64,000 nt of DNA from an uncultured Isosphaeraceae bacterium (GCA_964474235.1 CAYYRP010000010.1:4934-68933); one strand, 5' to 3'. Counted from the first letter of the stretch, positions 15,678 through 37,296 are shown. Program-made: numbers and translations. The notes: generated by a model not told the origin, from the letters alone.

Positions 15678-15705
15678 CATAAAAACGTACTTTAATGTCG
15701 ATGAT

Positions 15706-18700
15706 CTAGTTCGGCAATTTCTCGAAATACAAGATCTTTGGCTTGTCTTGCGGGGTGTTTACCTCGCTACGATCGACGAGCATGACATAGCGTGAGTCAT
15801 CAATAATGTAGTCGAGATCGGTTGCATCCCAAACACCTGTTGCTGAATTTTTCCTGAACGTACGAATACGCATGTGCACAGTAAACACATCACTTGTAGT
15901 TGTGATCAAATTCGAAATACCCGCTTGTAACATATTTAGTTCTTCAGAGTCGCCACTTACACGATCACCAATTAAAGAATCTTCTTCGTAAATATCTACA
16001 GGAGCACCTTTGTCATCAACAACATTTCGTGAATTCACATCAGTGCTGATCGGCGCACCAACACCATCTGCAATCCAATTAGAATTAGAAGTGCCAAATT
16101 CAGAAAATGGTTCTAAGCCAGCATAATCAATACGCCATGCTGCAGGGCCTCGGATCGCTTGATGATTAGAACTGCTCCAAGGTTCAACAACGAACTCAGG
16201 TTTATACTCCGTTTCCATGGTGTCAAACGGTGATGCAGAGAGCATACCAATTTGCGATGGAGATGCAAACCCACGTGTTTCTTCAAGCATTGAGGCATTA
16301 CCGAGCCCTAAGCGCCACGAACGATCTGAATAATCAGGAGCACCAACAATGCCGGTCCCTACAATTTGATCTGCAAAACCGTTGCCATTTTCTCGCCATT
16401 GAAGGATAGATTCAGGAATAAGTGACCGCGGGTTCACATCTCCTGAAACGGCACCCCCACTATCGGATTGTTGCGTAGCGTGGACAATTTTGTTCATGTG
16501 TGGGAGCGCCCGCATCGCTTCAACTGTCGCTGTGTTAATGTTGATCATTCCCGGCGTAGATTTTCCTGTAAACCCATTCGCGTTATAAAAAGAGAACCAC
16601 TGCGTATCTGATGGTTGCAAATCTCCACCTAACCGACCTGGACCATCGCACACGAACGTATCAAGCACTCTGCCTGCAACTGACAAACGCGGCCATGGGT
16701 ACTCAGCAACACGATACGAACTGATCGAATCATCCCAACCTAGTTGCGTGCCACCTAGCATCATCGGCAATGTCATTTGTTGCGTGTCATTTGGATCAAG
16801 TGTATTCTCAAAATCCTCAACGCCTTGATTAAATCGGAGTCTATTCACGCGTGCATCAACATAGAATTCTGTGCGAGTTTCGTCAATATCTGCAGGACCA
16901 TCGAGATCATCTAAGGAAGAGAATCTAGCAATCCCCGTCAATGGTGCCCACCAATCCCAATCAGGATTTCCGTCACCATCTTCATCATCAGCAAGAAGAT
17001 CACCATCTTTATCAATAATTTTTGGGAACATAAATTCGCTAAATGTGACTTGTGTACCAGTGCTATGAATATCGCCTCCGTCGAGAGGGCCTCGGTTCAA
17101 ACTAAAAGTAACATCCGGTAGTGCTTGGTCAAAAAGTATATCGCTTTCAATCATGTGCCCAAAGAGCCAGCAGTTGAGCACTTCGCCAACCTGCTCAAAG
17201 TCGTCATCTTTTTGCAACATCTGCATCGAGAATGGAAATGCCATATCTCGCTCGGCTTCGCCCTCAACACCATCTCCGACTACGAAACCATCTTCATCAA
17301 GATCAGTATCTTCAAACAATGCTTCGTTTTCACCAATGCCGTCCGCAGCATCTGCATCAAAAGGATCAAATTCAAAATCTAGGAACGCAGGGTTAGCAGC
17401 AAAAGTTCCGTCCTCAGCATATTCGTGAGGTGCCCAAGTGCCATCAGTTGGGTCGTGAATCGCTTCCTTTCGAGATTGTCCATACCATCCCTTATCTGGG
17501 AATAGAGCATTCTCTTGATAGTTCATATCGAAGTACGTTGGTTTTCGATTCCTCAAGCCGCCAGCAATAAGCCCATCATTGATAATCTCGTTGTCTCCAC
17601 GGGGAGACCATGTTTCAACTGTAAACCATGGATCAGGATCATCGGCGACCATATCATCGTCGCCACTGTCTGGATTACCATCGCCGTTCATATCATCAGG
17701 ATCTTCGGGTGTTGCTAACTCCCATTTCCATTCAAACACGGAAGTGTGATCTATATTTGGATCTGTTTCGGCTGTATTCATAACAGGTAGCAGATCCAGT
17801 GATCGTATGTGATCACGAGCTGAGAACACAAATCGTGGATTACGTTCCCAGCTGTCATACGTACCATTGTGCCAACCGTACATGTCGGGTACATCTACGC
17901 CCCACGCTCTTGTAGCGCGATCCCACTGCACAAAGAGAACATCATGTGGATTATCAGGATCAGTTACAAGGATTTCAGTATCGATGAATCCATCATCTGC
18001 ATCATCGTCTTTGTCGACTTTATCCCACTCATCTTCCATATCATCAACGACACGTTTAGTAAAACTATTGAACTCATCCGGTCTGTCTAACCGGTCAATT
18101 AAAACCAGTTGGTCAACATCTGTCTTGTAAAGCGCGACTGCATGTTGCGCTTCATCAGAAAGTGCGTCATACCATTCACGCTGCGTACTCCAATCCCCTT
18201 CAGGAACTTCTGCAATGATAGAACCTGCCGCGCCTGCGGGATGATCAGCAACATCGAGGTCTAAGAAATCCAACCAATCAATTCTAAATTGCGGATTCGC
18301 AATTGGGGCAAATTCTTCTTTTGGAATTGTAATAGTTTCTTCATCTGTCATTGCATACAAGATTAACGTCGCAGGATTTTCTGGCGTTGACGGGTATAAA
18401 AATTGTTGGTTTGTTGAAACCAAGAAACTTAAATCTAGTCTCTGTCCAAAAAACTCAACTGTGTAATCTGAAAGGTCAATGACGCGATCAAACGGATTGG
18501 CGAGTTGCACAACGGCGACAGTTTCTTGCGGACATTCATCTGTGTCAGGAGTGACAAGATAAAACGGCTCACACGTTGTAGAAGTACACACAGTACCGTC
18601 GCCTTGATACGTACCATTGATCAAGCCACACGCGTCACCATCAACAACCATCAAACAACTTCCACTAGAGACGCAACACGAACCAAGTCCACAAGGGGAA

Positions 18701-21700
18701 GGGTCGCAATTCGTTCCATCACCCCAATATTGACCTTGCAAATCATTACAAGAAGTTTCATCAACTTCTTTGCATTGTCCTGTTGGCAAGCAACATGCCC
18801 CCACCTCGATAACACATTGGTTATCGCAATCGCTGCACAATGTGTCATCGCCCCAGTACTGAATGCCACCACTTGCAACACAAAATAGTTCAGTAACTTC
18901 CATACAACTAGAACTATCTAAACAACACGCTCCTACAATGCAATTGGTTGCATCACATAACGAATCATCGCCTTGATAGAATCCTGCAAGTAATAAACAG
19001 GATGGCTCTGTCACTTCGACACACTCCCCTATACCCAAACAGCATGCTCCATCAGGACGACCGGGGACACTCGCTCCGCCAACGCAACAGCAATGCCCAT
19101 CAACACACAGAGTTCCGTCTCCACTGTATTCACCGCCAAGTTCACTGCATGTAAATGGTGATACTTCAGTACATTCAAATGTAATAATGCAACATGCACC
19201 TTTTACACATGGACTTGTATCACACATCACCCCGTCACCTTGATACAGACCGCCAAGATCAACGCACGATGTTTGCGGAACATTCACACACGGTTCATCC
19301 GGAATACAACAAGCGCCTTCTATATTTGGAGTACATGGATCTCCTGCGCAAGTTGTAATGCCGTCCCAAACGCCGAGCATCAAGTCACATTGATCCTGTG
19401 TGATGTCTGCACATTCATCTGTGTTGAAGCAACATCGGCCAAGAATAAGAGGCGCTGGTGCGCACGATGCATTGTCACAATCAACGCCGTCCCCTTCATA
19501 CGAACTGAGGAGATCGTCGCACATAGCAAGTGTCATTTGTTCACACGTTCCATCAAGTAAGCAACACGCACCGACTGTACAAGGGGCAGCGCCACACGTG
19601 GTTCCATCGCCTTGATACGTCCCTGCTTTATCAATACATGCTTCTTCAGTGATTGTGACACAATAATTATCTTGAAGACAACAAGCACTTTCAATAACAT
19701 CAAGACATGGATCGGTACTGCAGAGTGTTCCATCACCTTGATAACTCCCAGCGAGATTGTCACACAAGTTTAATGGTGTCACTTCACACTCACCTGTTGG
19801 CAAACAACACGCGCCCGTATCGCAAATTCCTTCACAGCAACTCGTCGAATCGCCTTGGTATGTTCCTGCAATGAGTGCACATACAGATTGAGGAATTGTC
19901 ACACAACCTTCTAACCCCAGACAGCATGCGCCTTCAAAAACTGCAGGGCAATTTGAGTCAAAGCAAGTTGTATCTGAACCAATAAATGCTCCGCCAAGGT
20001 CCAGACAAGTAGAACTTCTTACAGTTTCGCAGAGTTGCAGATCGCTTATGCAGCAAGCTCCAACTTCTGATGAATCAGGAACATCTCCGCAGGTTCCCTC
20101 TACACAAGAACCACCATCGATTGAACCACCCAAGCTTAAACAAGTGCTAGATAAAATATTTTCACAGTTCCCATCGGGCAAACAACACGCTTGCGTGCTA
20201 CAAGAACCATCTTCACAGCTTGAGCTGATACCACCAAAGATGCCTGCTAAGTCATCGCATATATCTTCTGTAACTTCGTAACAAGCGCTTGCTAGGCAAC
20301 AGGCGCCCTCAAATACATCACAACATGGTTCACCCGAACATTCAGAACCATAGCCTTGGAACGAACCAAGCAAATCAGTTTCACAAATGTGCCGTGTAAT
20401 TTCTTCACAGAACAAAGCCTCATCATCACCAGCAGTAAAACAGCATGCGCCACCGCACTCGATTGCACCACACAAGACGCCATCAAAGTACGAGCCACCT
20501 ATATCATGGCATTCTGAGGAAGCAGTTTGCATATTATCTCCATTTGAATCCACAGTTGATGTCATGTTGATACAACTACCACTCCCAAGGCAACATGCGC
20601 CTGTTATGAGGCATGGAGCCTCTGCACAGAATGTTCCAGAATTGTATTCGCCTTCAAACACAGATTCGCAGTATTCTTCAGTCCACACATCCATACAATC
20701 ACCATTTGGTAAGCAGCAAGATCCAGTTGTACAAGCGATGCTTGCACAGTCCGTTGAGGCACCTAAATAATCACCGCCGAGTGTTACGCACTCTGCTTCA
20801 GAAAATACATCGATACAACTTCCACTTCCAAGGCAACAGGCGCCTGTCGAATTACACACCTCCTCTGTGCAATCTAGCCCGTCACCCCTATACACGCCAC
20901 CATACAACATACATGTTTCTTCGATCAGGGTTACACATGTGCTCGCCGGCAAACAACATGCACCAACCGTAGGATCTGTACATAAACCAACCGAACACGA
21001 AACGCCTTCCGTCCACTGTGTATCTTCCACAGGAACACCAGAAAGTTTTGTAAGTTGCTCACAGTGAACGAGAGAAATTTCAAGACATTCGCCAGTTGCA
21101 ATCAAACAACATGATCCAATGACTGCTGGCGATCCAGTACAGTCTGCACATGTAGTTGCCTCACCTTGATAAACACCTGAGAGCATTGTACAGAAACCTT
21201 CTGTCACTACTTCGCAACGGAATTCGCCAATACAACACGCTCCAATAGCACATGGTGCAGAATCGCAAAGTTCACCGTCCCCTTTGTACTCGCCACCCAT
21301 GTCATAACAGACCAGTGCGTCCACTTCAATACAAAAGCCAATTGGCAAATCAAGCGGATCCGACCCAGTTGGGATCTCAGGGATATGCGTAATACAACAT
21401 GCACCAGATCCACAAGGATCAGTTGAACACAAAACAGACAGCCCCGCAAAAGTACCGCCAACTGTTGCGCATTGCGCAGCCGTTAAATCTTCACATATTC
21501 CCGCAGTTGGCTGACCAGTTGGCGAATTATTTGCAATACAGCAGCCACCCAATGCAGGTGTTACCGCTCCGCCACAGGGGTCGGTGTCACAAAATATATC
21601 GTCACCTGAATATGTTCCACCAAGGGCAGTACAGACTACAAATGTGATATCAACACAATCAGTCCCCACACAACACCCTCCGCGAGGAGTACAAGTAACA

Positions 21701-24700
21701 GTATCGCATGTTGTCCCAGCACCTTGGAACGTACCGTATAGTTGTTCCTCGCACGTGCGTATCGAAACGTCTTCACATCCACCCTTTGGCAAACAACAGG
21801 CGCCAAAACATTCGATATCAGAGCAATTTTGACCCGCAAAATATGTACCGTCAAAGTTCAAGCAAGAATCTTCAGAGATATATACACAAGAGCCAGAATT
21901 AAGCGATGTACCAGCTGCAAGATCATCGTCTGTATCAAGACAACAAGCTCCGAATGCTCCGCCACTCCCGCCGCATGGATCTTCGGCACAAGTTACACCC
22001 AACTGATAGGTGCCACTGAGCTCAAAACAAGTGCTAATAGTTACATTTGTACACTGCCCACTGTCTAGGCAACACGCACCTCCACACGGATCATCAATAC
22101 AAAATCTTCCCAATTGAAACACGCCGCCAAAATCTAGACACGTGGTTTCGCCTGCTTCTCGTATATCAATACAACTTCCACTTAGCAAACAACATGCCCC
22201 TTCTGGAGTACACGGAAGAGAAACACAATCAGAATCTATACCTTTGTATTCACCGCCCATATCTGTACAACTCTCTTCTGAAAGTAATTCACAGCCGAGT
22301 AAATCATCTATATCAAGATCAAAACAGCATGCACCCCCACAAGAAATTTCACAACAGAGTTCACCATCATGATATTCACCACCAAGTGTAATGCAATGTT
22401 CTCTGGCGATTTCAATGCAATTTCCTGCCGGTAGACAACATGCCCAACATGAAACAAGTTCGGGGCAAGTCACATCGACACACAAAGAATCTGCATGGAA
22501 TTCTAAACCGCCAAGGAGCGAGAGGCATGTTTCTTCGGAAACTTCTTCGCAGATGGTTTCAGAATCACAACCCGATAAGCAACATGCGCCAAGTGGTTCT
22601 GGGACTTTTGCTTCATGGACGTGCGCAATGAATGTTTCAAGTATAAATGGCTGCGCTTCGAGCCCGAGCATTTGGACTGAACCACCTGCGTCGTTTGAAA
22701 AATTTGTTCCGATTATTGGTAGAGCATTCTGATCATGATCACGCTGCCTGCCAAGGACAGGAGGAGTCACTGCAGAACTCAAAGGCAAACTAGACCTTGC
22801 AAAGGACCCGTTTGGATTAAATGGCAACAGGGAATGATCTCGCCATGCGTCATCTGTATCTTTGTATGCCATCATATTAGAGGCGAGTCCTGCAGCCATT
22901 AACCTCGTTTGCTGATAGGGATCTTGTAAATCACCATTACTTTGGATGGACGTACCATCCATTTCTCCAGCAACTGTACGACCATATCCATTCCAAACTC
23001 CAGTTTCAGAACCGTCGAACATACTCGTAGTTCCTGATTCTTGAGAATCTGTCATTGCAAGCAATAGTGCCAAAGGGGCTCTTTCAGAAAATGTTAATGT
23101 GCCATCGGCGTAAGATTCCCACCATGGATCTCCAAATGCAAAAGTGCCAAAATATTCTCGCAAATCCACTTTGGTTGTTGCTTGTTCTCTCCACTTGTTT
23201 GCAACATCTAAGAATGCCTCTTGCTCTTGACCAGGAGGCGAATCAGATGCAGCTTGCACGGCTTCGTATACAACCTTGAGCGGGAACATTTGCCCCCAAA
23301 CATTTGTTGGTGCTGCGTAGGAATAGTATGCACTTATGTCTAAGGGATCACCATCATCACCACTTGGCAAATCACCCTCTGAGAGATCTGGGTCAAAGCG
23401 ATTGGCAAACCGATCTTCCCATCGAAGCCATGGTGGAAGCAGATCATTTCTTACACCACTAAACAAAGTCATCTTGCGTCGATTATCGAAAACAAGTTGC
23501 GAATTTGTGAGTTGATCACGCAGCTCACTTGCTTCGTGAGCTTTGGTGTAATCACTGCGAATGAATTGCTGACCTACATCGCCATTGGCATTCACTCTGT
23601 TAATACTATTTTCGAATCGGCTTCCAATAAATTGGTAGTTATTCCCCTCGTTAATTCTGAGTTCTATTTCATCAGAGAGGTTGTAGGGTCTAAATCCACG
23701 TCTCGCGTTGAGTGGATTTCTGCCTACGAGTTGCCAATACCAGCGGCGACCATACAGAGAAGTAATGTTATCCCATGGATCATTCAAATCAGCAAATGGA
23801 TTCGCAGTTGTATCGTAAAAAATATCATTCGAAGTCGAGCCACTGACCTGCGCTCCAACTTCATCAAGGATTGATGCATACTCTTGGTCTTGCCAACGGT
23901 CCGTATCCCAAGCCACGACAACTCTTGGGTCATTGGGGTCATCAAGTTCACCGTATGTGATCCAATCTGGTGCGTTAGCAGGTGTATCAAGAAAGCCTAC
24001 TTTCCAATTTGAATCTGTTTCGCTGTAGACATCGTTTTGTGCAACAAGAGCGATGTCGGCAGGTGTATGACCTCTAGTCCCTTCCCCGCCAAGGGCTACC
24101 ATCGGCTGACTCGTACTTGGCATCCCCTCGCCTCTTTGTGGCATTGATGCAGTAATGCCTGAGCTAGAAACATCAACACGATGAAACCGTGACCCAACGT
24201 TAAAATTTACTTTTCCAGAGTTATCAGTAATAGAAATACCAACAATTTGACGAATGTCCGAGCCTGCTTCATACGGTGACAAGTGCCAAATAGAATCTGT
24301 AAAGCCGTCGCCATCAGAGTCTGTCAGCGTTCGTTCTACCATCCACCGTGGAGTCCCATCTTCGAAGGCATCCATCGGCCGTTCACCCTGTTCATGCTGG
24401 ACCCCGTCATTATCTAGATCACTTAAATTCAAGAAGTTGATTGGTAGTAGTTCACTATTAGATTGTGCATTTACCCAGCCATCTAAACTGTACCAATTGT
24501 ACCAACGAGTCCAAAAGTCACCATTGTTATCTAATACATTGCCATCGCTAATTGGCAAATCAAAACCGAGCCCGACTTCGGCAGGCAGTTGCCCCCCAAC
24601 AGTTGGGCGCCACGAGGGCCACTGCTCAACTGGTACATCGAGATCTGTCATCACGCCATCGCCGCCAATATCTGAAATATTGCGTACAGGTCTCCATGCA

Positions 24701-29268: not shown

Positions 29269-29981
29269 CGCGCATCCTCCACAACAAACGGCTCGTACGA
29301 CGTTACGTTATCCAACGTTGCATTCCATGTGTCATCATCTCTTGAATATGGATTTGCTTGGTACCGATATCCCCACAGACCATCGGGACCCGCAGAGACT
29401 AAATATGAGCGTTTATTCAAACATGAACCAAGCCCATCTTCTGCTTGATCGCGTATGGTTAAATCACCCGATTCGTCTTCCGCAAGGGTGATCAACCCAG
29501 AATCTTCAAAGTCGCCGCAAGGAAAAACTATTCCTATAGGAAAACCCCAAGCATCAACAACGCGAGCACCGTGTTCATCTTCCTCTATCAAGTCAGGGTG
29601 AATCTTTGCAAGTATATTTTTACTTGCTTCAAGTTCTATGAGTAATATCCAAAGCTGTTCTGCACGGTAATCCATTGCTTCGGTCATATCAGATTGATCA
29701 ACACTTGCATTAAAAGATGGAATACCAAGTATGCCATCATTTTCAATGTCGTACGTGCCACCAACTGAACCTACAGATGCGAACGTCATTGATCGACCCA
29801 TTTCTGTTTCCCATTCAGAAATAGCTGTGTCAAGAAGAGTAATAGCATCTTTGGTTTTTCTTATCTCGCTGCCACGAAGCACTTTGTTAGAAATACCAAG
29901 CGTCAACCCTGCAAGTAACACAATGATTGCAATCACAATCATCATTTCGATCAAAGTAAAACCGCGCGTTTCTTTTGTCAT
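29265..29981 (-). CDS. prepilin-type N-terminal domain protein, second GspG-like pseudopilin (238 aa)
   Basis: N-terminus MTKETRG-FTLIEMMIVIAIIVLLAGL, then ...KTKDAITLLDTAISEWE. Confidence 0.75.
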   Translation of the reverse strand: MTKETRGFTLIEMMIVIAIIVLLAGLTLGISNKVLRGSEIRKTKDAITLLDTAISEWETEMGRSMTFASVGSVGGTYDIENDGILGIPSFNASVDQSDMTEAMDYRAEQLWILLIELEASKNILAKIHPDLIEEDEHGARVVDAWGFPIGIVFPCGDFEDSGLITLAEDESGDLTIRDQAEDGLGSCLNKRSYLVSAGPDGLWGYRYQANPYSRDDDTWNATLDNVTSYEPFVVEDAR

Positions 29982-31135
29982 GGACCAATCTCCACTATGT
30001 TGTCAGCGTTAAATTCATCAGTTGCGTCATCACTATCATTTCCAGGCAAACCAAAAACGTCCGCCCGTATTCGAGTATTTAATTGCTTATCTGCGCCTGC
30101 GGAGAAAAAAGCAATGTTTCCTGTTTGCAATTCAAGTGTTGTAGAAGGGTCTCCATTCCCATACGCTTCGTTGTAATCACCAAAACTTGCATTTACTGGG
30201 CTACTTGGCAAATTGAAAGGACGTAAGACAATGTAGTCGCTGAGTGTTGGGCGCGCAAAATCAGAGCCGGGAGGATAGATTCGTGAAATGCCTGATTCAA
30301 TTTCTCGGTCAACTTCGTCCGTTTGAGGGAATTGATTTTTAAATGGATAGACTTGCCGATAGTAGCGGATAGGTGATCCCCATGAGTCTACAAGCACCAT
30401 CGGATTTTCTTGGTTATCCGTCGAATAATCAGGATCCCCCGGATAGTGCACAATCGGCTGACCTGTTAGTGGATCAAGTGTAGCATCGGGTGCTCCATCA
30501 CCATCCCTGTCAGGGCCAAGGACAATTCTTCCAAGCATTTGTTCATTTTTTACTTCAATATAAGGTCCGTAAGTTTTACCACCAGCAGCAATTGCGTACC
30601 CACGATCTTCGAAATCCCATGTTCCTCGATCGCAACCCCAATCTGGAAATGCACAACGATCTGTCGCGCCCCAAACACCGTCCATCGCGGGATGACGAAT
30701 ACCGAGTGCTGGTGATTCGTCTCTGTTTTGAATGGGACCACCGAGAACTCGATATGAACCGTAGCCATCCTCATCACGCCCGCCGTAGCCAAGCAAGTAT
30801 TCAGCGGGTGAAGTAATAGAATACCAATGCTGCGCAGTTCCTCGGTAACTCGATTGCTCGTTGCCCTGCATGCCAATTGGAGGATAATTAGGAAAGTTCG
30901 CGAGCCCACGGCTGTCATTCAAAATTGGCGGGTAATAGCCAATATCATTTTTAAAGGCAGTCATTCCTTGCGCCATTGCTGTCATGCGGGATCGTGTTTC
31001 TGCTCGCTTAGCTGCCGTTCTTGCAGCACTAGTTGCGACAACGAGCACAGCAACCAAGATCACGATGATCACAATGACCATTAACATCTCGATGAGTGTA
31101 AAAGCAGAAAGCAAATTGGATCGACGTTGATGCAC
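29978..31135 (-). CDS. GspG-like major pseudopilin candidate with a long C-terminal extension (385 aa)
   Basis: N-terminus MHQRRSNLLSA-FTLIEMLMVIVIIVILVAVLV...AKRAETRSRMTAMAQGMTAFKNDIGYYPP follows the GspG pattern (..A..L..Y..D.G.YP). Position -1 is Ala rather than Gly. It is the first gene after the platform gene. Confidence 0.7.
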   Translation of the reverse strand: MHQRRSNLLSAFTLIEMLMVIVIIVILVAVLVVATSAARTAAKRAETRSRMTAMAQGMTAFKNDIGYYPPILNDSRGLANFPNYPPIGMQGNEQSSYRGTAQHWYSITSPAEYLLGYGGRDEDGYGSYRVLGGPIQNRDESPALGIRHPAMDGVWGATDRCAFPDWGCDRGTWDFEDRGYAIAAGGKTYGPYIEVKNEQMLGRIVLGPDRDGDGAPDATLDPLTGQPIVHYPGDPDYSTDNQENPMVLVDSWGSPIRYYRQVYPFKNQFPQTDEVDREIESGISRIYPPGSDFARPTLSDYIVLRPFNLPSSPVNASFGDYNEAYGNGDPSTTLELQTGNIAFFSAGADKQLNTRIRADVFGLPGNDSDDATDEFNADNIVEIGP

Positions 31136-31142
31136 TGTTTGT

Positions 31143-32438
31143 CTAATCCTGTGATACCGATTCGATCATCTTCACAAGTGGCATAAAGAGTGCGAGAACG
31201 ATGGTACCGACAATGCCACCAAGGACAACAACCAATGCAGGTTCAAGCAAACTCAACATGGCTGTAACGGCAACATCAACTTCTTCATCGTAGTTGTCAG
31301 CAATTTTAATCAACATGACATCGAGATCGCCAGTCTCCTCGCCAACTTCGATCATATTGACGACGATTGAGTCACACACCTTCGCTTCACGCAAAGGGTC
31401 GGCGACTGTTTCACCTTCACGGATTGAGTCATGCACATCAGTAAGCGCTTTTTCATACACATAATTGCCCGAAGTATCTCTTGTAATCAGCACCGCTTCA
31501 AGAATAGGAACACCTGCCGCAACAAGCGTGCCAAGGGTTCTAGTAAATCTCGCTACAGATGTTTTCATGACGAGTGGACCGATGACTGGAACTTTCATTC
31601 GAATAATGTCAGTAGCAGCTCGACCCGGACCAGTTCTGCGGATTAACTTTAAGAAGAAGAAAATTAAGAACGGAGAAGTCACGATCCAAATAAATCCAGG
31701 AATAGCCTGCGTCCCTTCTTTTGGTGTTCCCGCTACCCACAAACTTGTTTCGATTAGCCAAAGGGTCAATCCAGGCAATTCAACTTCAAAGTCATTAAAA
31801 ATATCTTCAAACTTTGGGATAACAAAATACATAATGCCAGTCACAATCAACACTGCTACAACGATGACACAAATCGGATAGATCATTGCGCCTTTAATTC
31901 TTGCCTTCAACCGTTCTGCTTTTTCCATAAAATTTGCAAGACGTTGCAAAATGACATCGAGCACGCCGCCGATTTCACCAGCAGCAACCATCTTTGAGTA
32001 GAGACGGTCGAACGCCTTGGGGTGCTTACTCATCGAATCTGAAAGGCTACTGCCTGATTCAACATCTTCAACAACTTCTAATAGGATAGATTTTAGTTTA
32101 CCCGGTTTTTGCTGTTGTTCAAGAATTTGCAACGATCGCAAAAGAGGAAGACCAGCATCTTGAAGCGTAGAAAGTTGTCTTGTAAATTGGCATAAGTTTT
32201 TTGTTTTTACCTTCCCAAAAGAAATCGACATTCCTTTTTTCTTCTTGTCTTTTTTCGCTTTCTTTTCTTTTTTTTCACCACCACCACTACCACCACCGAC
32301 CGAATCTTCTCGAACAGAAGTGGGAAAGAAGCCTTGCTGCCGAATTGAAGAAATTGCTTCGTCACTCGAACCGGCTTCGATGCGGCCTTTTTCTGTTTTT
32401 CCCGCTGCGTTCAGCGCTTCATAGACATACGTAGGCAT
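31143..32438 (-). CDS. type II secretion / type IV pilus platform protein (GspF/PilC family)
   Basis: 431 aa with two T2SSF-type repeats and three TM segments (MIYPICVIVVAVLIV, FIWIVTSPFLIFFFL, VVVLGGIVGTIVLALFMP). It carries a Gly/Lys-rich insert GGGSGGGEKKEKKAKKDKKKKG near the N-terminus. Confidence 0.9.
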   Translation of the reverse strand: MPTYVYEALNAAGKTEKGRIEAGSSDEAISSIRQQGFFPTSVREDSVGGGSGGGEKKEKKAKKDKKKKGMSISFGKVKTKNLCQFTRQLSTLQDAGLPLLRSLQILEQQQKPGKLKSILLEVVEDVESGSSLSDSMSKHPKAFDRLYSKMVAAGEIGGVLDVILQRLANFMEKAERLKARIKGAMIYPICVIVVAVLIVTGIMYFVIPKFEDIFNDFEVELPGLTLWLIETSLWVAGTPKEGTQAIPGFIWIVTSPFLIFFFLKLIRRTGPGRAATDIIRMKVPVIGPLVMKTSVARFTRTLGTLVAAGVPILEAVLITRDTSGNYVYEKALTDVHDSIREGETVADPLREAKVCDSIVVNMIEVGEETGDLDVMLIKIADNYDEEVDVAVTAMLSLLEPALVVVLGGIVGTIVLALFMPLVKMIESVSQD

Positions 32439-32456
32439 GTGTCAGGCTCCAATTCA

Positions 32457-34262
32457 TTAATCATTTGAAATGGTTTCGCGAACCACTTCGTCAATAGTTG
32501 TTTGTCCGTCAAAAATAGAGAGCATCCCGCACTCTCGAAGGGATCGCATACCACGTTTTTGCGCTTCAACGCGGATCACGGCAGTAGACGCTTGAGAAAG
32601 GATCAATTCACGGAGTGAATCGTCAAACTCCATGATCTCAAATAATGCCAAACGTCCACTGTATCCACTGTTGTTGCACGAGTCACACCCTTTGCCTCGA
32701 AAGAAAGTACGCCCAGCAACATCTTCACGATGCAATTGCAATTCAAGCAATTCTTCATCACTTGGTTCGTATTCTTCCTTACATTTCGTGCAAATTCTTC
32801 GCACGAGGCGCTGCGCAACAATTGCTTCTACTGTTGCAGTGATCAAAAAGCTTTCAACACCTAAATCAACGAGGCGAAGAATTGTAGAGGGTGCATCATT
32901 TGTGTGGACTGTTGTAAAAACTAAGTGACCAGTCAATGAAGCTTGGACAGCAATCTGCGCTGTTTCAAGGTCACGAATTTCACCAACGAGAATCACGTCG
33001 GGGTCTTGACGCAAGAATGAACGAAGCAATTTTGCAAAGGTTAATTTTTGATCGGTATTCACTTGGCATTGAATCAACCCATCAATATCATATTCAACAG
33101 GATCTTCTGCGGTAAGAATTTTTGTCTCTGGATCGTTGAGTTCATTCAGTGCAGAGTACAGCGTAGTAGTTTTACCTGAACCTGTAGGACCTGTCACAAC
33201 AACAATGCCATTAGGGCGCTTAATAACATCAGCCATTTTGTCGTAATCTGCTGCACGCAAACCAATCTTGTCCATACTTAATTGAACGTTCGATCTGTCA
33301 AGCACACGCATTACGACTGATTCACCAAACATCGTGGGAAGCACTGAAACCCGAAGGTCAACTGGCGAGGCTGCGACTGTTAACTCAATACGACCATCTT
33401 GCGGAAGCCTGCGTTCTGCAATGTCTAGATTTGCCATAATCTTAATACGCGAAACAATTGGCATTGCTAAGTGCATTGGTGGTGGAACCATTTCATAGAG
33501 CACACCATCAATTCGGTATCGCATTTTGAACTCTTCTTCGAATGGTTCAAAATGAATATCAGATGCTTTATCTTTAATTGCCTGCAAAAGAACAAGGTTG
33601 AGCAAGCGAACAATTTTATTATCACCCGCTGCTGATGAAAGATCGTCAAGGTCTACTGAGTCACCGCGTCCGCCAAAACGAGAGAGGTCATCAGATTCGG
33701 CAAGTTGATTCATCATGTCGGACATGGAAGGACCGCCAGAGGAATACTTTGCCTTGACCACTTCATCAACTTGCTCGGGCAATGCAACGACAGCATTCAC
33801 TTTGAAGCCCATCAATAAACGAAGGTCATCTACTGCTCGAAAGTTATCTGGTGTCTTGAGCGCAATGGTGATTGTTTTTGTTTTCTCGTCGTAGGCAACG
33901 GGTGCAATCCCATAGGTTGTCGCTGTCTCCATTGGCAGGGCTTCAACTGCAGAGTCTGGAATTGAATCAACTTCCAAACTAAGAAATCGTAGTCCCGCCT
34001 GACCAGCGAGGGCTTGAAGGACATCATGTTCAGTAATGAGTCCCATCTCTATCATGATTTCACCAATTTTTCGGCGGTCGCCTTTCTTACGGGCAACTTT
34101 CTGAACTTGAAGTGCTTCATGAACCTTTTCACGATTAAGTTTTCTTAATTTGGTCAATACACGACCGAAGCGACGACCCTTTAATTGCGAAGGATCAACG
34201 GTCTTTGCTGTTGTAGAACCACTTCTACTTGATGATGCTTTTTTTACTCGGTCCTGTGCCAT
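32457..34262 (-). CDS. GspE/PilB-type assembly ATPase (second copy) with an MshEN-like N-terminal domain
   Basis: Walker A GPTGSGKTTTLYSAL, a Walker B/Asp box, the His box LTGHLVFTTVHTND and a tetracysteine CTKCK...CDSCNNSGYSGR. The N-terminal GSPII_E_N-like segment is RFGRVLTKL...KIGEIMIEMGLITEHDVLQALAGQ. Confidence 0.9.
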   Translation of the reverse strand: MAQDRVKKASSSRSGSTTAKTVDPSQLKGRRFGRVLTKLRKLNREKVHEALQVQKVARKKGDRRKIGEIMIEMGLITEHDVLQALAGQAGLRFLSLEVDSIPDSAVEALPMETATTYGIAPVAYDEKTKTITIALKTPDNFRAVDDLRLLMGFKVNAVVALPEQVDEVVKAKYSSGGPSMSDMMNQLAESDDLSRFGGRGDSVDLDDLSSAAGDNKIVRLLNLVLLQAIKDKASDIHFEPFEEEFKMRYRIDGVLYEMVPPPMHLAMPIVSRIKIMANLDIAERRLPQDGRIELTVAASPVDLRVSVLPTMFGESVVMRVLDRSNVQLSMDKIGLRAADYDKMADVIKRPNGIVVVTGPTGSGKTTTLYSALNELNDPETKILTAEDPVEYDIDGLIQCQVNTDQKLTFAKLLRSFLRQDPDVILVGEIRDLETAQIAVQASLTGHLVFTTVHTNDAPSTILRLVDLGVESFLITATVEAIVAQRLVRRICTKCKEEYEPSDEELLELQLHREDVAGRTFFRGKGCDSCNNSGYSGRLALFEIMEFDDSLRELILSQASTAVIRVEAQKRGMRSLRECGMLSIFDGQTTIDEVVRETISND

Positions 34263-34320
34263 TGTTTTCTTACTCCGTAGACACCCATTGCGTTCGGGTA
34301 CCTGCCACTACACTTTTATG

Positions 34321-34349
34321 ATCATTGGATGTTAAACATCCTTTGACAA
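34321..34349 (-). promoter_or_regulatory. candidate internal sigma70-like promoter in the 170-nt pilT-gspE gap
   Basis: The minus strand reads TTGTCA-N17-AATGAT. A weak hairpin (AGTACA..TGTACT) plus a T-run lies just after the pilT stop. This is sequence pattern only. Confidence 0.25.
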
Positions 34350-34432
34350 CTGCAATAGGAGTGCTTTTTACATTTGCCACCTAGATTATTCACTTAACCT
34401 CTCGAAAAATCAAGTACAAAGTTGTCCTGTAC

Positions 34433-35536
34433 TTACCCTTCATCTAACTCACTCCTGCCCACTGTACCACCAGTGCTATGAACCTTTTGGGTTAAGGAGT
34501 TGGAATCTCTGCCCTTATCAATCATTTCCTCGGCTCCAATCATGCCTCGTTCATACAACGACCAAAGGTGATCGTCGAGGAGTTGCATGCCAAATTTTCG
34601 CCCAGTTTGAATAGCGGAGTCAATCCGGAACGTCTTATTTTCACGAATAAGGTTCGCGACAGCTGGCGTAACGACAAGGAATTCGTAGGCAGCAACACGG
34701 CCAGATTTATCAATTCTTCGTAGAAGTACCTGCGAGAGAACTGAAATGAGGGAGGTAGAAAGTTGCACCCGAACTTGTTCTTGCTGGTTCGTTGGAAAGG
34801 CATCAACAATCCGGTTGATTGTGCCCGCAGCACCAGTTGTATGCAAAGTCGCAAACACCAAGTGACCGGTTTCAGCCGCTTGAATTGCAGCTTCAATTGT
34901 TTCCAAGTCTCGCATTTCCCCAACGAGAATGACATCGGGGTCAGCACGCAATACACGACGAAGCGCTTCCGAGAAACTTGGAACATCGTTGCCAACTTCA
35001 CGCTGATTCACAATCGATTTTTTGTGGTAGTGATAATATTCAATCGGATCTTCTGCAGTTACAATGTGACGCTCAAGATTGGCATTGACATAATCGATCA
35101 TCGTCGCAAGCGATGTCGTCTTTCCCGATCCAGTCGGCCCCGTCACAATAAACAAACCCCGAGGTCTACGGATCAATTCTTTCAAAATTTTCGGCAAACC
35201 AATCTGTTCAAATGTCAGCAATTCATTTGGAATCAAACGCAATACAAGGGTAATGTCACCACGCTGGCGAAAAATCGCGACCCGAAAACGTGCTTGCGTT
35301 CCAAACGCAAAACCAAAGTCACAACTTCCCTCTTCCTGTAATTCTTGCTGTGCTTTTTCGGGCGTAATTTGCTTCATCAAAGCAACACAGTCATCACCGT
35401 CGAGCACTTTTGTGTCAAGGTTTTTTAAGCCGCCATGCAAGCGTAATGTAGGTTTTCGACCAACAGTTAAGTGAAGGTCTGAAGCCCCTGTACGAACAAC
35501 TGTGTCGAGCAATCTATCTATTTGAATCGTTGACAT
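34433..35536 (-). CDS. pilT: type IV pilus retraction ATPase PilT
   Basis: 367 aa with ASDLHLTVGRKPTLRLHG, GPTGSGKTTSLATMIDYVN, ETGHLVFATLHT and the PilT-specific AVANLIRENK region. Confidence 0.9.
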   Translation of the reverse strand: MSTIQIDRLLDTVVRTGASDLHLTVGRKPTLRLHGGLKNLDTKVLDGDDCVALMKQITPEKAQQELQEEGSCDFGFAFGTQARFRVAIFRQRGDITLVLRLIPNELLTFEQIGLPKILKELIRRPRGLFIVTGPTGSGKTTSLATMIDYVNANLERHIVTAEDPIEYYHYHKKSIVNQREVGNDVPSFSEALRRVLRADPDVILVGEMRDLETIEAAIQAAETGHLVFATLHTTGAAGTINRIVDAFPTNQQEQVRVQLSTSLISVLSQVLLRRIDKSGRVAAYEFLVVTPAVANLIRENKTFRIDSAIQTGRKFGMQLLDDHLWSLYERGMIGAEEMIDKGRDSNSLTQKVHSTGGTVGRSELDEG

Positions 35537-35556
35537 ATATGTAGGTTCCGTCCGTA

Positions 35557-37296
35557 TTAAATATCCACATTACCTTCAAGAAGCGCCTCTGCCTGTGCAA
35601 ATTTAGCAATTTCTTCAGGTGTTGTATCACCTCTGAGCACTTTAATTTTCCCGTCCTCAACAAGCGTAGTCATGCCACCACGAACTGCAGCAGCACGAAG
35701 TTGGCCTAGCGGGGCTCGGTTGAATGCAAGTTCTCGCGTTTCATTGTTCATCACCATCATTTCAAAAATCGCTTTTCGACCTTTGTATCCACGGTTATTA
35801 CAAACGCTGCAACCAACTGGTTTGCAAATTTCTGCATTTGCTGCTTCTTCTGGTGAAATATCAAGAAGTTTGAGGAATTTTTTATCCGGCGACTTATCTA
35901 TCTTTTTGCATTTTGAGCAAAGGATTCTCGTGAGACGTTGCGCCATAATTGCTTGAATTGAACTTGCAACAAGGTATGGTTTCACACCCATGTCAATCAA
36001 ACGCGTGATCGCAGAGGGTGCGTCATTGGTGTGCAATGTTGAGAAAACCAAGTGCCCAGTCAACGCGGCTTGAATTGCAATGTCAGCTACTTCACGGTCA
36101 CGTATTTCACCTACAAGAATAATGTTTGGTGCTTGTCGCAACATCGCCCGAAGAATAGCGGTGAAGGTTAAGCCAATCGAATCACGGATTTGACACTGGT
36201 TGATACCAGCAAAACTATATTCAACTGGATCTTCTGCAGTAATAATTTTGCGTTCGGGCGTGTTTAATACATCCAATGCAGAATACAACGTTGTCGTCTT
36301 ACCTGAGCCAGTTGGTCCTGTCACAAGGAGAATACCGTTGGGTCTACGGATCAATTTATTAAAACGATCAAGATTTGCTTGCTCAAAACCAAGATTTTTC
36401 AAACCGATTCGAACAGAGTCGGGACGCAAAATCCGCAACACAATCGACTCGCCATGATACGCAGGACATGCACTCACACGAAAGTCAATTTGATCGCCAT
36501 CGATGCCCATCTTAATACGACCATCTTGCGGGATACGTTTTTCCGCAATGTTTACACCAGCCATCAATTTTAATCTTGCCAAAATTGCTGATTGCATTCG
36601 CTTTGGCAAGTTATCGCGAACATGACAAACACCGTCAATGCGATATCGTAAGACAACACGATCTTCCATTGGCTCAACATGGATATCAGAGGTATTATTC
36701 CGAACCGCTTCGGTAATCATTCGAGTCACAAGTTTGACAATGGGTGCTTGGTCACCGTCAACATCAATTGAAGCGTCAACGGATGTATCAACACTTCTAT
36801 CAACTGTCACGTCAACAGAATCTGTAACGAGAGAAGTGTCGGTAAACATTGATTCAGAACCACCCAAATCACCAGAAATAAACGCTTGAATTGCAGATTT
36901 TGTTGAGAGTGCTGGTTCAATTTCACAGTTAAGTCTAAACCGCAACAAGTCGAGCAATTCCAAATTAAGTGGATCGTGAATGATTAACTTTAATTTACCG
37001 CCCTCTTTGCTCAGTGGCAAAATCGCATGTTTTTGGATGACATCATTTGGAATGAGTTCCATATCAGGCGTTGGACATCCTTCACTCCCATCAAGGGGAA
37101 TAAAATCCATGCCGAATTGTTCAGCGAGTGCCTTGATGACAGCCTGTTCGTTACAGGCACCTTGTTCAATCAACACTTCACCAACTCGCTTCGCTGTGCC
37201 TTCTGCTGCCTTCAATGCCTCGCGGAATTGATCCTTTGTCACAACTTTTTGTGAGACAAGGATCTCACCTAATTTTTTTCTTCGTTTTCGTGCCAT
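35557..37296 (-). CDS. GspE/PilB-type assembly ATPase (first copy) with tandem MshEN-type motifs
   Basis: GPTGSGKTTTLYSAL, LTGHLVFSTLHTNDA and CSKCKK...CSVCNNRGYKGR. The N-terminus is KLGEILVSQKVVTKDQFREALKAA-EGTAK-RVGEVLIEQGACNEQAVIKALAEQ. Confidence 0.9.
   Translation of the reverse strand: MARKRRKKLGEILVSQKVVTKDQFREALKAAEGTAKRVGEVLIEQGACNEQAVIKALAEQFGMDFIPLDGSEGCPTPDMELIPNDVIQKHAILPLSKEGGKLKLIIHDPLNLELLDLLRFRLNCEIEPALSTKSAIQAFISGDLGGSESMFTDTSLVTDSVDVTVDRSVDTSVDASIDVDGDQAPIVKLVTRMITEAVRNNTSDIHVEPMEDRVVLRYRIDGVCHVRDNLPKRMQSAILARLKLMAGVNIAEKRIPQDGRIKMGIDGDQIDFRVSACPAYHGESIVLRILRPDSVRIGLKNLGFEQANLDRFNKLIRRPNGILLVTGPTGSGKTTTLYSALDVLNTPERKIITAEDPVEYSFAGINQCQIRDSIGLTFTAILRAMLRQAPNIILVGEIRDREVADIAIQAALTGHLVFSTLHTNDAPSAITRLIDMGVKPYLVASSIQAIMAQRLTRILCSKCKKIDKSPDKKFLKLLDISPEEAANAEICKPVGCSVCNNRGYKGRKAIFEMMVMNNETRELAFNRAPLGQLRAAAVRGGMTTLVEDGKIKVLRGDTTPEEIAKFAQAEALLEGNVDI

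What the first reader, a model, noticed from the sequence alone, without database searches (positions are those of the whole stretch)
15706..37296. Gsp-ordered type IV filament operon with uniformly oversized pseudopilins and an embedded PilT
Read from the sequence, the minus-strand gene order is: PilB/GspE-like ATPase, PilT, a second PilB/GspE-like ATPase, a GspF/PilC platform, five ORFs that open with class III signal peptides, and a sixth ORF. The five signal peptides are SA-FTLIEM, RG-FTLIEM, RG-FTLVEL, QG-FSLIEL and VG-FTLMEL, all with Glu5. The sixth ORF has a hydrophobic N-terminus lacking Glu5. This reproduces the canonical gspG-H-I-J-K order. The products are 385, 238, 311, 408, 597 and 3203 aa, whereas textbook pseudopilins are roughly 120 to 350 aa. 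Junctions at 29978, 29265, 28333, 27110 and 25317 overlap as ATGA or TAATG, indicating translational coupling. A retraction ATPase inside a Gsp-type layout is a hybrid of T2SS and T4P logic. No secretin, prepilin peptidase, GspC/L/M or PilMNOP is encoded anywhere in these 64 kb. Taken together this looks like a distinct, poorly described filament system rather than a standard T2SS or T4aP.
Basis: partly seen in the sequence, partly recalled or inferred. Interest (0 to 1): 0.85.

Follow-up and report, generated by a model that had tools for sequence, protein, structure and literature searches.

The report
Phycisphaerae pilus operon with giant tip pilin
This is a real ten-gene operon, conserved in uncultured Phycisphaerae (Planctomycetota), that encodes the motor and subunits of a retractable type IV pilus-like filament; every subunit is two to ten times the usual size, and the sixth is a 3,203-residue GspK/PilK-like protein that probably puts an adhesin at the filament tip.

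Summary
The minus strand of 15706-37296 carries PilB-like ATPase, PilT, second PilB-like ATPase, PilC/GspF platform, five ORFs with class III signal peptides ([G/A]F[T/S]xxE), and a 3,203-aa ORF with a pilin-like N-terminus lacking Glu5. Four junctions overlap as stated; the fifth is GTTGA or a short gap. No secretin, prepilin peptidase, GspC/L/M or PilMNOP domain was found in the 64 kb.

The same ten-gene order occurs in 34 complete loci, and 78 of 81 related loci are consistent with it. All are Phycisphaerae-type MAGs, down to 24% identity, always with oversized subunits and a giant of at least about 1,580 aa.

N-terminal profile matches fit G, G, H, I (PilV-like), J. The K call rests on position, absent Glu5, an NxNTA motif and a conserved C-terminal helix-plus-three-strand module. 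Globular parts are dark, and AlphaFold/Foldseek gave nothing.

"T2SS/T4P hybrid" is overstated: the H-I-J-K core is common to both, and the ATPases sit closer to T4aP PilB than to GspE.

Best reading: a T4aP-like retractile filament with a built-in giant tip adhesin, here 31 Cys-rich repeats inserted at a variable site. It is a new variant of a known kind, uncharacterised and moderately to highly interesting.

The parts
35557..37296 (-). E1: PilB-type extension ATPase with N-terminal MshEN domain (candidate c-di-GMP sensor)
   Evidence: T2SSE 434.6 bits and MshEN 59.9 bits. NF053729 c-di-GMP motif 51.6 bits, above its cut-off of 38. Best PDB match is Geobacter PilB at 470 bits, against GspE at 369 bits. 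Walker A GPTGSGKTT and two CxxC motifs are present.
34433..35536 (-). PilT retraction ATPase
   Evidence: TIGR01420 PilT/PilU family 443.9 bits, above its cut-off of 319.1. It carries AVANLIRE, a variant of the AIRNLIRE PilT signature. It sits between the two PilB genes in every locus where that part is covered.
32457..34262 (-). E2: second PilB-type ATPase, paralogue of E1 (38% identity)
   Evidence: T2SSE 464.7 bits and MshEN 38.5 bits. Best PDB match is PilB at 537 bits, against GspE at 409 bits.
31143..32438 (-). PilC/GspF inner-membrane platform
   Evidence: T2SSF x2, 213.4 bits. PilC (Myxococcus model) 387 bits and GspF 385 bits, both below their equivalog cut-offs.
29978..31135 (-). 385-aa pilin, GspG/major-pilin-like alpha1; candidate shaft subunit
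   Evidence: SA|FTLIEM. The motif is kept in 59 of 59 homologues, which argues for the GTG start rather than the gene callers' Met17. hhalign vs GspG 95.5% over 77 columns. The profile hits major pilins in PDB through alpha1 only. Median mature length in the family is 356 aa.
29265..29981 (-). 238-aa pilin, GspG/major-pilin-like; second candidate shaft subunit
   Evidence: N_methyl 29.5 bits. hhalign vs GspG 98%. The profile hits M. xanthus PilA, geopilin and GspG through alpha1. The gene is duplicated in several related loci.
28333..29268 (-). 311-aa minor pilin, GspH/FimU-like
   Evidence: TIGR02596 38.9 bits and GspH 32.3 bits, both below cut-off. hhalign vs GspH 87.9% over 63 columns and vs GspG 94%. 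The start is either TTG at 29268 or ATG at 29259.
27110..28336 (-). 408-aa minor pilin, PilV/GspI-like
   Evidence: TIGR02523 PilV 33.2 bits (cut-off 52.2) and GspI 19 bits. Its best hhalign match is E. coli PpdB at 50%; all others are below 10%.
25317..27110 (-). 597-aa minor pilin, GspJ/PilW-like by position and N-terminus
   Evidence: Its best hhalign match is GspJ, 67% over 65 columns. The AF2 model has alpha1 at residues 3-71 followed by beta-sheets, pLDDT 65. Foldseek found no match. The family is found only in Phycisphaerae-type MAGs.
15706..25317 (-). Giant 3,203-aa PilK/GspK-like tip subunit. It has an N-terminal pilin helix without Glu5, a conserved N-domain (about residues 1-903), an array of about 31 Cys-rich repeats (residues 910-2259), a conserved C-domain with an NxNTA motif, and a terminal helix + 3 beta-strands.
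   Evidence: N-terminus RRA|NALILV, and the family motif RRG|N[AT]L[IV]LV. L006's 1,857-aa orthologue equals residues 1-903 plus 2247-3203 of this protein. Repeat units are listed. T2SSK motif hits occur in 5 of 12 homologues. The last about 70 aa have pLDDT of about 80, with a helix at 878-889 and strands at 898-908, 925-936 and 948-955 of the C-terminal 957 aa. Conservation is strongest in the last about 80 aa.
15630..15678 (-). Intrinsic terminator closing the operon
   Evidence: 13-bp stem followed by U7, -25.4 kcal/mol, z = -4.1; none of 200 shuffles folded as well.
14258..15502 (-). Adjacent separate gene: a secreted 414-aa protein with 9 copies of the same Cys-rich repeat and a dockerin-like tail. 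It is associated with the operon, not shown to be part of the machine.
   Evidence: Sequence; repeat units. Dockerin match 2y3n at E = 0.0011. It has its own AT-rich upstream region after the terminator. A similar gene lies after the giant in L026.

Best explanation
The operon encodes the cytoplasmic and inner-membrane motor and all filament subunits of a retractile, T4aP-like type IV filament specific to Phycisphaerae.

Shown:
- Two PilB-type ATPases, PilT and a PilC platform are present.
- Five proteins carry class III signal peptides with Glu5.
- A sixth, giant protein has a pilin-like N-terminus without Glu5.
- The architecture is strictly conserved.

Inferred mechanism:
1. A prepilin peptidase encoded elsewhere cleaves the six precursors after Gly/Ala.
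2. The giant K-like subunit is the apical subunit. Its extreme C-terminal strands fold back onto its N-terminal pilin module. That leaves 1,500-3,300 residues as an insertion that projects from the tip.
3. The I-like and J-like (408 and 597 aa) subunits and then the H-like (311 aa) subunit dock beneath it to form the priming complex. This follows the model described for GspIJK, PilIJK-PilC/Y1 and CpaL.
4. The PilB paralogues, probably gated by c-di-GMP through their MshEN domains, then polymerise one or both G-like pilins (385 and 238 aa) into an unusually thick shaft.
5. PilT depolymerises the shaft. Whatever the tip module has bound is pulled towards the cell, or the cell is pulled towards it.

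In this lineage the tip module is about 31 disulphide-rich 40-50-aa repeats. Copy number varies from 0 to about 45 among close relatives, as expected for a fast-evolving binding or adhesion array.
For: Domain identities.

Class III motifs are conserved across all five families, and the giant family lacks Glu5.

N-terminal profile matches follow the G, G, H, I, J order.

The ten-gene order is conserved in 34 complete loci, and 78 of 81 loci are consistent with it, at p597 identities from 89% down to 24%.

The insertion sits at a fixed point and has variable content. Four other giants have no Pfam domain at all.

The giant's C-terminal 80 aa are its most conserved part and are predicted with confidence as a helix plus three strands.

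The NxNTA motif is shared with Pfam T2SSK.

Published framework: PilK homologues invariably lack Glu5 and sit apically. Systems without PilC/PilY1 carry large insertions in the K homologue between the beta-sheet and a donor C-terminal strand; CpaL (about 600 aa) and ComZ are examples (PMC13533445). Modular pilins display adhesion modules at the pilus tip (PMC8179133).

The proteins are acidic. The 193 Cys in the repeat array fit an extracytoplasmic, disulphide-bonded module.
Against: - No globular domain of any subunit has a detectable relative.
- Giant versus E. coli GspK is not significant.
- The AF2 models were poor and gave no Foldseek matches. The fold-back topology and the H/I/J/K roles are therefore inferred, not shown.
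- PilM/N/O, which define T4aP, are not in the window, and neither are a secretin or a peptidase. The rest of the genome could not be searched.
- Which protein forms the shaft is unknown.
- No expression or imaging data exist.
- The binding function of the Cys-rich repeat is a guess. It has no Pfam model and no informative partner domains.
Confidence: 0.62

Rival explanations
1. It is a divergent type II secretion system. The pilin-like proteins would form a periplasmic pseudopilus piston that expels folded exoproteins. One candidate substrate is the adjacent Cys-rich/dockerin protein. PilT would help to reset the piston.
For: The contiguous E-F-G-H-I-J-K order matches gspE-K of E. coli. GspG, GspH and GspJ are the best N-terminal matches. 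The K-like protein supplies its own C-terminus and there is no PilY1, as in T2SS (PMC13533445). A secreted repeat protein lies next door.
Against: PilT is conserved in every locus. The ATPases are closer to PilB and carry MshEN rather than the GspE N-terminal domains. No GspC, L, M, D or O is in the locus. A tip subunit of 1,600-3,300 aa with a hypervariable repeat array is hard to reconcile with a short periplasmic piston.
Confidence: 0.1
2. It is a DNA-uptake (competence) pilus. The tip protein would bind extracellular DNA and PilT would reel it in.
For: The giant's conserved NxNTA helix-hairpin-helix-like motif weakly matches HHH_3, the ComEA type (E = 0.16). A ComEA-like HHH_3 gene is in the window at 61547-62017 (48.8 bits). 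Competence pili of Thermus and V. cholerae also use K homologues with insertions (PMC13533445).
Against: The same NxNTA motif occurs in non-DNA-binding GspK. The giant is strongly acidic (pI about 4.1), which is unfavourable for DNA binding. The ComEA gene is 24 kb away among housekeeping genes. Nothing explains the need for 1,600-3,300 residues.
Confidence: 0.08
3. It is not a long filament. The machine would insert and display very large prepilin-type surface proteins, in the manner of a bindosome or an anchored surface layer. The 'pilins' would be individual anchored exoproteins rather than polymer subunits.
For: All globular parts are large and unrelated to known pilin domains. Own knowledge: Planctomycetota encode many prepilin-type proteins that are not thought to form pili.
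Against: The strict six-gene H-I-J-K-like series, with exactly one Glu5-less member, is the signature of a priming tip complex (PMC13533445). PilT implies polymer disassembly. The alpha1 helices match polymerising major pilins.
Confidence: 0.1

Closest known systems
Type IVa pilus (Myxococcus, Pseudomonas, Neisseria; minor-pilin core FimU/PilH-PilV/I-PilW/J-PilX/K)
   Same: It has PilB-type extension ATPases, a PilT retraction ATPase and a PilC platform. It has short class III leaders with Glu5, an H-I-J-K-type series and a K member without Glu5. The ATPases score highest against T4aP PilB.
   Different: No PilM/N/O/P/Q or PilD lies in or near the locus. Two PilB paralogues flank PilT. There is no PilC/PilY1 gene. 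Every pilin is 2-3 times the usual size and K is 5-10 times. Candidate shaft pilins have mature lengths of about 230-370 aa, against 208 aa for the 'large' M. xanthus PilA (PMC11046646).
Type II secretion system pseudopilus (GspE-F-G-H-I-J-K; GspIJK tip, PDB 3CI0)
   Same: The contiguous gene order is the same. G, H and J are the best N-terminal matches. K carries an internal insertion and its own C-terminal strand, and there is no separate tip adhesin (PMC13533445).
   Different: PilT is present. GspC, D, L, M and O are absent from the locus. No Gsp equivalog model reaches its cut-off. The K insertion is 1,500-3,300 aa rather than an alpha-domain of about 180 aa.
K-type minor pilins with adhesin insertions: Caulobacter CpaL (about 600 aa), Thermus ComZ; modular pilins of Streptococcus sanguinis (PilB, PilC)
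   Same: The design is the same: a pilin module carries a grafted or inserted functional module at the filament tip, and the C-terminus returns to the pilin sheet (PMC13533445, PMC8179133).
   Different: The scale differs: 1,580 to more than 3,350 aa here, whereas the largest modular pilin noted in the InterPro survey is 860 aa (PMC8179133). The module content is entirely unannotated. No sequence similarity was detected.
Verru_Chthon cassette (TIGR02596-02600) of Verrucomicrobiota
   Same: It is a PVC-superphylum cassette of several prepilin-type proteins plus one large protein (own knowledge of the TIGRFAMs description). The 311-aa protein's best NCBIfam hit is cassette protein D (38.9 bits).
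   Different: The hit is below the cut-off of 70 bits and covers only the N-terminal helix. No hits to cassette proteins A, B or C were found for the other subunits.

Membership tests
Type IV filament superfamily | PilB/GspE-family ATPase, a polytopic PilC/GspF platform, and subunits with a class III signal peptide | tested here: met
   T2SSE 434.6 and 464.7 bits. T2SSF x2, 213.4 bits. N_methyl / TIGR02532 on the pilins. The motif is conserved in homologues.
Type IV filament superfamily | Prepilin peptidase (PilD/GspO) in the genome | not testable with these tools
   None is in the 64-kb window.
Type IVa pilus | PilT retraction ATPase | tested here: met
   TIGR01420 443.9 bits, above its cut-off of 319.1. 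AVANLIRE motif.
Type IVa pilus | PilM, PilN and PilO alignment complex (T4aP-specific according to PMC6916266) | tested here: not met
   No such domain is in any ORF of 150 aa or more in the window, and no extra genes appear within the operon in 34 complete loci. They could be encoded elsewhere in the genome, which was not testable.
Type IVa pilus | Extension ATPase of PilB type | tested here: inconclusive
   TIGR02538 PilB 598 and 614 bits, below its cut-off of 675.65. GspE 560 and 606 bits, below its cut-off of 630.25. PDB PilB scores exceed GspE scores. No phylogeny was made.
Type II secretion system | GspC, GspL, GspM and the secretin GspD together with GspE-K | tested here: not met
   No such domains are in the window. 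Compare the E. coli gsp locus.
Type II secretion system | No retraction ATPase | tested here: not met
   PilT is inside the operon in every locus where that part is covered.
GspK/PilK/PilX minor pilin | Pilin-type N-terminus lacking Glu5 (PMC13533445) | tested here: met
   RRA|NALILV in the window, and RRG|N[AT]L[IV]LV across the family.
GspK/PilK/PilX minor pilin | Sequence or fold similarity to GspK (Pfam T2SSK, PDB 3CI0) | tested here: inconclusive
   T2SSK is hit in 5 of 12 homologues, with a best E-value of 0.0085. The hits are below the cut-off and cover only profile positions 1-16. hhalign vs E. coli GspK gives 2%. The PDB profile search found nothing. The AF2 model has pLDDT 53 and no Foldseek hit.
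GspG / major pilin | Match to the GspG model beyond the leader | tested here: inconclusive
   385-aa protein: TIGR01710 35.9 bits, below its cut-off of 88.85. hhalign 95.5% for the 385-aa family and 98% for the 238-aa family, confined to alpha1. PDB hits are to alpha1 of major pilins only.
GspH/FimU, GspI/PilV, GspJ/PilW | Match to the respective equivalog models or solved structures | tested here: inconclusive
   All are below cut-off. The best hhalign partners follow the expected order, but only through the N-terminal 26-65 columns. There are no PDB matches to globular domains. Foldseek on the 597-aa model found nothing.
MshEN c-di-GMP receptor domain | NF053729 / PF05157 match at the ATPase N-terminus | tested here: met
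   E1: NF053729 51.6 bits, above its cut-off of 38, and MshEN 59.9 bits. E2: MshEN 38.5 bits, above its cut-off of 23.1, but NF053729 34.3 bits, below 38. Binding itself was not tested.
Verru_Chthon cassette | Proteins A-D matching TIGR02600, 02598, 02599 and 02596 | tested here: not met
   Only D is hit, at 38.9 bits, below its cut-off of 70. There are no hits to A, B or C.

The most novel reading that the evidence does not exclude
This would be a separate, Phycisphaerae-specific class of type IV filament. It would build an unusually thick shaft from pilins of 25-40 kDa and carry a tip subunit of 170-350 kDa. It would work with envelope components other than the canonical PilMNOPQ/GspCDLM set. 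It could be the gene set behind the thick, polysaccharide-binding 'pili-like fibres' seen on planctomycetes, whose genes are unknown. The filament would then act as a retractable fishing line for macromolecules or particles.
Probability: 0.18. Interest if true: 0.85.

Novelty: new variant of a known kind. Interest (0 to 1): 0.62.

Why it matters
Type IV filaments are among the most widespread prokaryotic machines, and models of their assembly assume small subunits. Here a whole lineage keeps every subunit 2-10 times the usual size.

That includes two shaft-type pilins larger than any structurally characterised major pilin. It also includes a Glu5-less K-type subunit of up to more than 3,300 residues. 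This is about four times the largest modular pilin noted in a published survey (PMC8179133).

If the model holds, three things follow:
- It is an extreme natural test of the recently proposed rule that the tip complex is licensed by a C-terminal beta-strand returning to the K pilin module (PMC13533445).
- It raises the question of how so large a tip passes the outer membrane.
- It gives a genetic handle on surface fibres of abundant marine and freshwater Phycisphaerae, which are particle-associated polysaccharide degraders (own knowledge).

It also points to a widespread Cys-rich repeat with no family model (about 4,100 representative proteins).

Tried and rejected
1. Pfam and NCBIfam on all ten proteins. 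Only the motor proteins and the N_methyl leader are recognised. No T2SSG/H/I/J/K, PilV/W/X or PilY1 domain passes a cut-off.
2. Family profiles against PDB sequences for the 597-, 238-, 385-, 311- and 408-aa proteins and for the giant's C-terminus. Only alpha1 matches to full-length major pilins appeared. The WD40 'hits' of the 311-aa profile are summed sub-threshold matches to an FSPDG-like motif, with no single stretch passing, so I rejected them.
3. AlphaFold2 of the 597-aa protein (pLDDT 65) and of the giant's C-terminal 957 aa (pLDDT 53), followed by Foldseek against PDB. No match reached E <= 0.001.
4. hhalign of giant N-terminal, C-terminal and 'mini-K' profiles against E. coli GspK. 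Not significant.
5. Profile search with the giant N-domain to reach other phyla. It returned only 11 hits, all Phycisphaerae-type. The word-index limit means that absence elsewhere is not proven.
6. Pfam on ten carriers of the Cys-rich repeat and on four other giants. Nothing informative, apart from one weak T9SS sorting-domain hit below its cut-off.
7. The simple terminator scan missed the operon terminator because its loop exceeds 8 nt. Folding confirmed the terminator.
8. A tandem-repeat search at DNA level found nothing, so the array is old and diverged rather than an assembly artefact.
9. I considered a PilY1-like identity for the giant and rejected it. The protein has a pilin-type Glu5-less N-terminus conserved across the family, and no PilY1/Neisseria PilC domain hit.

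Full report
**Observation**

The minus strand of 15706-37296 carries ten consecutive ORFs exactly as described.

Motor proteins (Pfam and NCBIfam):
- The 579-aa and 601-aa proteins are PilB/GspE-family ATPases with N-terminal MshEN domains.
- The 367-aa protein is a PilT/PilU-family ATPase: TIGR01420 443.9 bits against a cut-off of 319.1. It carries AVANLIRE, a variant of the AIRNLIRE signature.
- The 431-aa protein is a PilC/GspF platform with two T2SSF domains.

Pilin-like proteins:
- The sixth (3,203 aa from the ATG at 25317) opens with RRA|NALILVVGVLVLLV and has no Glu at +5.

Junctions and boundaries:
- Four junction overlaps are as stated.
- The 238/311 junction is GTTGA with a TTG start, or a 5-nt gap if the ATG used by gene callers is right.
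- A strong intrinsic terminator closes the operon: 13-bp stem, U7, -25.4 kcal/mol, z = -4.1.

Every plausible ORF of 150 aa or more in the 64 kb was scanned against Pfam. The neighbours are housekeeping genes. No secretin, prepilin peptidase, GspC/L/M or PilM/N/O/P domain was found.

**Origin and conservation**

The 597-aa protein occurs identically on several independent marine metagenome assemblies. Its relatives come only from Phycisphaerae or Phycisphaerales MAGs.

A scan of one genome per GTDB species returned 78 loci. All are from MAGs labelled Phycisphaerae or Planctomycetota, or from MAGs that are evidently mislabelled.

I classified stop-to-stop ORFs of all loci by BLASTP against the window's proteins. 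The order E1-T-E2-F-385-238-311-408-597-giant is complete in 34 loci. It is uninterrupted, as far as the contig reaches, in 78 of 81 loci, at p597 identities from 89% down to 24%. A few lineages carry an extra copy of the 238-aa gene.

Oversizing is a family trait:

| Subunit family | Median mature length (aa) |
|---|---|
| 385-aa | 356 |
| 238-aa | 253 |
| 311-aa | 300 |
| 408-aa | 406 |
| 597-aa | 553 |
| giant | never below about 1,580; more than 3,350 in some |

For scale, E. coli GspG, H, I, J and K are 145, 169, 125, 195 and 327 aa.

**Identity of the subunits**

The class III motif [G/A]F[T/S]xxE is kept in nearly all of the 59-80 homologues of each of the five families; 3 fragmentary ORFs lack it. 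For the 385-aa protein this supports the GTG start over the gene callers' internal Met, which would remove the leader.

The giant family keeps RRG|N[AT]L[IV]LV followed by a hydrophobic helix, with Leu or Val at +5. Lack of Glu5 is the published hallmark of PilK/GspK/PilX, the apical subunit of the priming complex (PMC13533445).

Family profiles compared with single E. coli K-12 sequences by hhalign gave best partners in the expected order:

| Family | Best partner | Probability |
|---|---|---|
| 385-aa | GspG | 95.5% (77 columns) |
| 238-aa | GspG | 98% |
| 311-aa | GspG / GspH | 94% / 88% (63 columns for GspH) |
| 408-aa | PpdB (the PilV/GspI-position protein) | 50% |
| 597-aa | GspJ | 67% |
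| giant | GspK | 2%, not significant |

These matches are limited to the N-terminal helix region.

No equivalog model reaches its cut-off. Family profiles against PDB sequences hit only alpha1 of full-length major pilins.

For the giant, 5 of 12 C-terminal segments hit Pfam T2SSK. The hits cover only profile positions 1-16, the NxNTA motif (GMININTATVEAMRALPHM in the window), and lie below the cut-off.

AlphaFold2 results:
- The 597-aa protein gave a pilin-like layout, alpha1 at 3-71 followed by beta-sheets, at pLDDT 65.
- The giant's C-terminal 957 aa gave pLDDT 53. Only the first about 150 and the last about 70 residues were confident; the latter form a helix plus three strands.
- Foldseek found nothing for either model.

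The G-G-H-I-J-K reading is therefore supported by order, leaders, N-terminal profiles and the single Glu5-less member. It is not supported by the globular domains, which are dark.

**Anatomy of the giant**

The 1,857-aa orthologue in L006 aligns to window residues 1-903 and 2247-3203 with nothing in between. The intervening about 1,340 residues are therefore a lineage-specific insertion.

The insertion consists of about 31 units of 39-54 aa, each with six Cys (consensus GACCx3-6Cx7Cx3GGxYxGx4Cx4-5C). That makes 193 Cys in all.

Among close relatives the array at this same point ranges from absent to about 1,950 aa. There is no DNA-level tandem identity, so the array is old and is not an assembly artefact.

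More distant giants of 2,200-2,900 aa carry other, equally unannotated inserts.

Across the family the conserved parts are the first about 630 and the last about 330 residues. The strongest conservation is in the last about 80...SNLxTTRSDVFTVYxRIRTF...SRYVMLVDRSxVNxPxDKPxILYFEKLPN. An invariant DxDGDGxTD..W loop lies in the N-domain.

**Comparison with what is known**

A 2026 study shows that T4F tip complexes are licensed by a C-terminal beta-strand added to the K pilin's sheet. That strand is supplied in trans by PilC/PilY1 in T4aP, and in cis by GspK in T2SS. In systems without a tip adhesin, the K homologue carries a large insertion between the sheet and the donor strand; Caulobacter CpaL (about 600 aa), Thermus ComZ and the V. 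cholerae competence pilus are examples (PMC13533445).

The giant fits this design at a far larger scale. The operon has no PilY1-like gene.

Modular pilins that display adhesion modules are documented. The largest noted in an InterPro survey is 860 aa (PMC8179133).

The ATPases score higher against full-length T4aP PilB (470 and 537 bits) than against GspE (369 and 409 bits). They carry MshEN, and E1 passes the c-di-GMP motif model.

E1 and E2 are 38% identical, and both look catalytically intact.

The H-I-J-K series is common to T4aP, T2SS, MSH and Com (PMC13533445, Table 1). PilB-PilT-PilC runs occur in T4aP loci (own knowledge). 'Hybrid logic' is therefore unnecessary. The system reads as a T4aP-like retractile filament whose genes happen to be contiguous.

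It fails the T2SS membership test: PilT is present, and GspC, D, L and M are absent from the locus. Within the window it also lacks the T4aP-specific PilMNO (PMC6916266). The rest of the genome could not be searched.

**Mechanism (inferred)**

The mechanism has four inferred steps:
- Leader cleavage happens first, by a peptidase encoded elsewhere.
- A K-I-J(-H) priming complex then assembles, with the giant apical and its insert projecting outwards.
- The PilB paralogues, possibly gated by c-di-GMP, polymerise one or both G-like pilins.
- PilT drives retraction.

The variable, disulphide-rich, acidic insert looks like an adhesion or capture module. Pili-like fibres 12 nm thick that bind dextran have been seen on other planctomycetes, without a genetic assignment (PMC5394234). 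Any link to this operon is speculation.

**Rivals**

The rival readings are a divergent T2SS, a competence pilus, and a display machine for anchored prepilin-type proteins. The competence reading is prompted by the HhH-like motif and by a ComEA-like gene at 61547-62017. None is excluded, but each fits fewer of the facts.

**Side observations**

Directly after the terminator lies a separately transcribed 414-aa secreted protein. It has nine copies of the same Cys-rich repeat and a dockerin-like tail.

The repeat occurs in about 4,100 representative proteins at E <= 1e-3, and in 1,111 at E <= 1e-10. It has no Pfam model. It is not confined to this lineage: one carrier is an Eisenbacteria protein annotated by NCBI as a T9SS type A sorting domain protein.

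**Verdict**

This is a new variant of a known kind: a conserved, uncharacterised, clade-specific T4aP-like system with uniformly oversized subunits and a giant K-type tip pilin.

The main weaknesses are the lack of structural confirmation and of the remainder of the machine.

Noticed in passing
window 14258-15502 (-): A 414-aa protein with a Sec-type signal peptide, nine copies of the same six-Cys repeat found in the giant, and a dockerin-like CDGDVNGDGIVNVDDILIVIAAWGPC tail (PDB 2y3n dockerin, E = 0.0011). It has its own upstream region after the operon terminator. A similar gene follows the giant in L026.
   Followed up: partly
window 18540-22590 (-) (giant residues 910-2259), and elsewhere: The Cys-rich repeat of about 40-50 aa (GACC...C...C...GG.Y.G....C....C) has no Pfam or NCBIfam model. 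It occurs in about 4,100 representative proteins at E <= 1e-3 (1,111 at E <= 1e-10), many of 1,000-4,000 aa. One carrier is an Eisenbacteria protein that NCBI annotates as a T9SS type A sorting domain protein. It is a widespread, undescribed extracellular module.
   Followed up: partly
window 61547-62017 (-): A 156-aa ComEA-like protein (HHH_3, 48.8 bits) next to mfd. It is a candidate periplasmic DNA receptor, which keeps a DNA-uptake role for the pilus formally open.
   Followed up: no
window 35557-37296 and 32457-34262 (-): Two PilB paralogues (38% identity) flank PilT in every related locus. Both have MshEN domains, but only E1 passes the NCBIfam c-di-GMP motif model (51.6 bits against 34.3; cut-off 38). 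Why two extension ATPases are kept is unexplained.
   Followed up: partly
L008, L043, L058, L059, L063, L086: Some lineages carry an extra paralogue of the 238-aa G-like pilin between the 385-aa and 311-aa genes. This gives seven pilin-like genes in those loci.
   Followed up: no
window giant residues about 330-345 (about 24280-24330, -): An invariant DxDGDGxTD..W loop in the giant's conserved N-domain (A6 columns D333, D335, G336, D337, G338, T340, D341, W344). It looks like a calcium-binding loop; its function is untested.
   Followed up: no
window 44313-45062 (-): An IS200-like Y1 transposase (Y1_Tnp, 47.3 bits) lies among housekeeping genes, about 7 kb upstream of the operon.
   Followed up: no
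window 4519-6177 (-): A 552-aa signal-peptide protein with Gly/Arg-rich ends, a long acidic coiled-coil-like middle and a weak EF-hand near the C-terminus. It has no family assignment.
   Followed up: no
L012-L014, L018, L020, L023-L025, L050, L065, L067, L069, L086: Record titles of many GTDB MAGs that carry this Phycisphaerae-type locus name unrelated taxa: 'uncultured Isosphaeraceae', 'Klebsiella sp.', 'Bifidobacterium sp.', 'Burkholderiaceae', 'Kuenenia stuttgartiensis'. These are probably mislabelled submissions.
   Followed up: no
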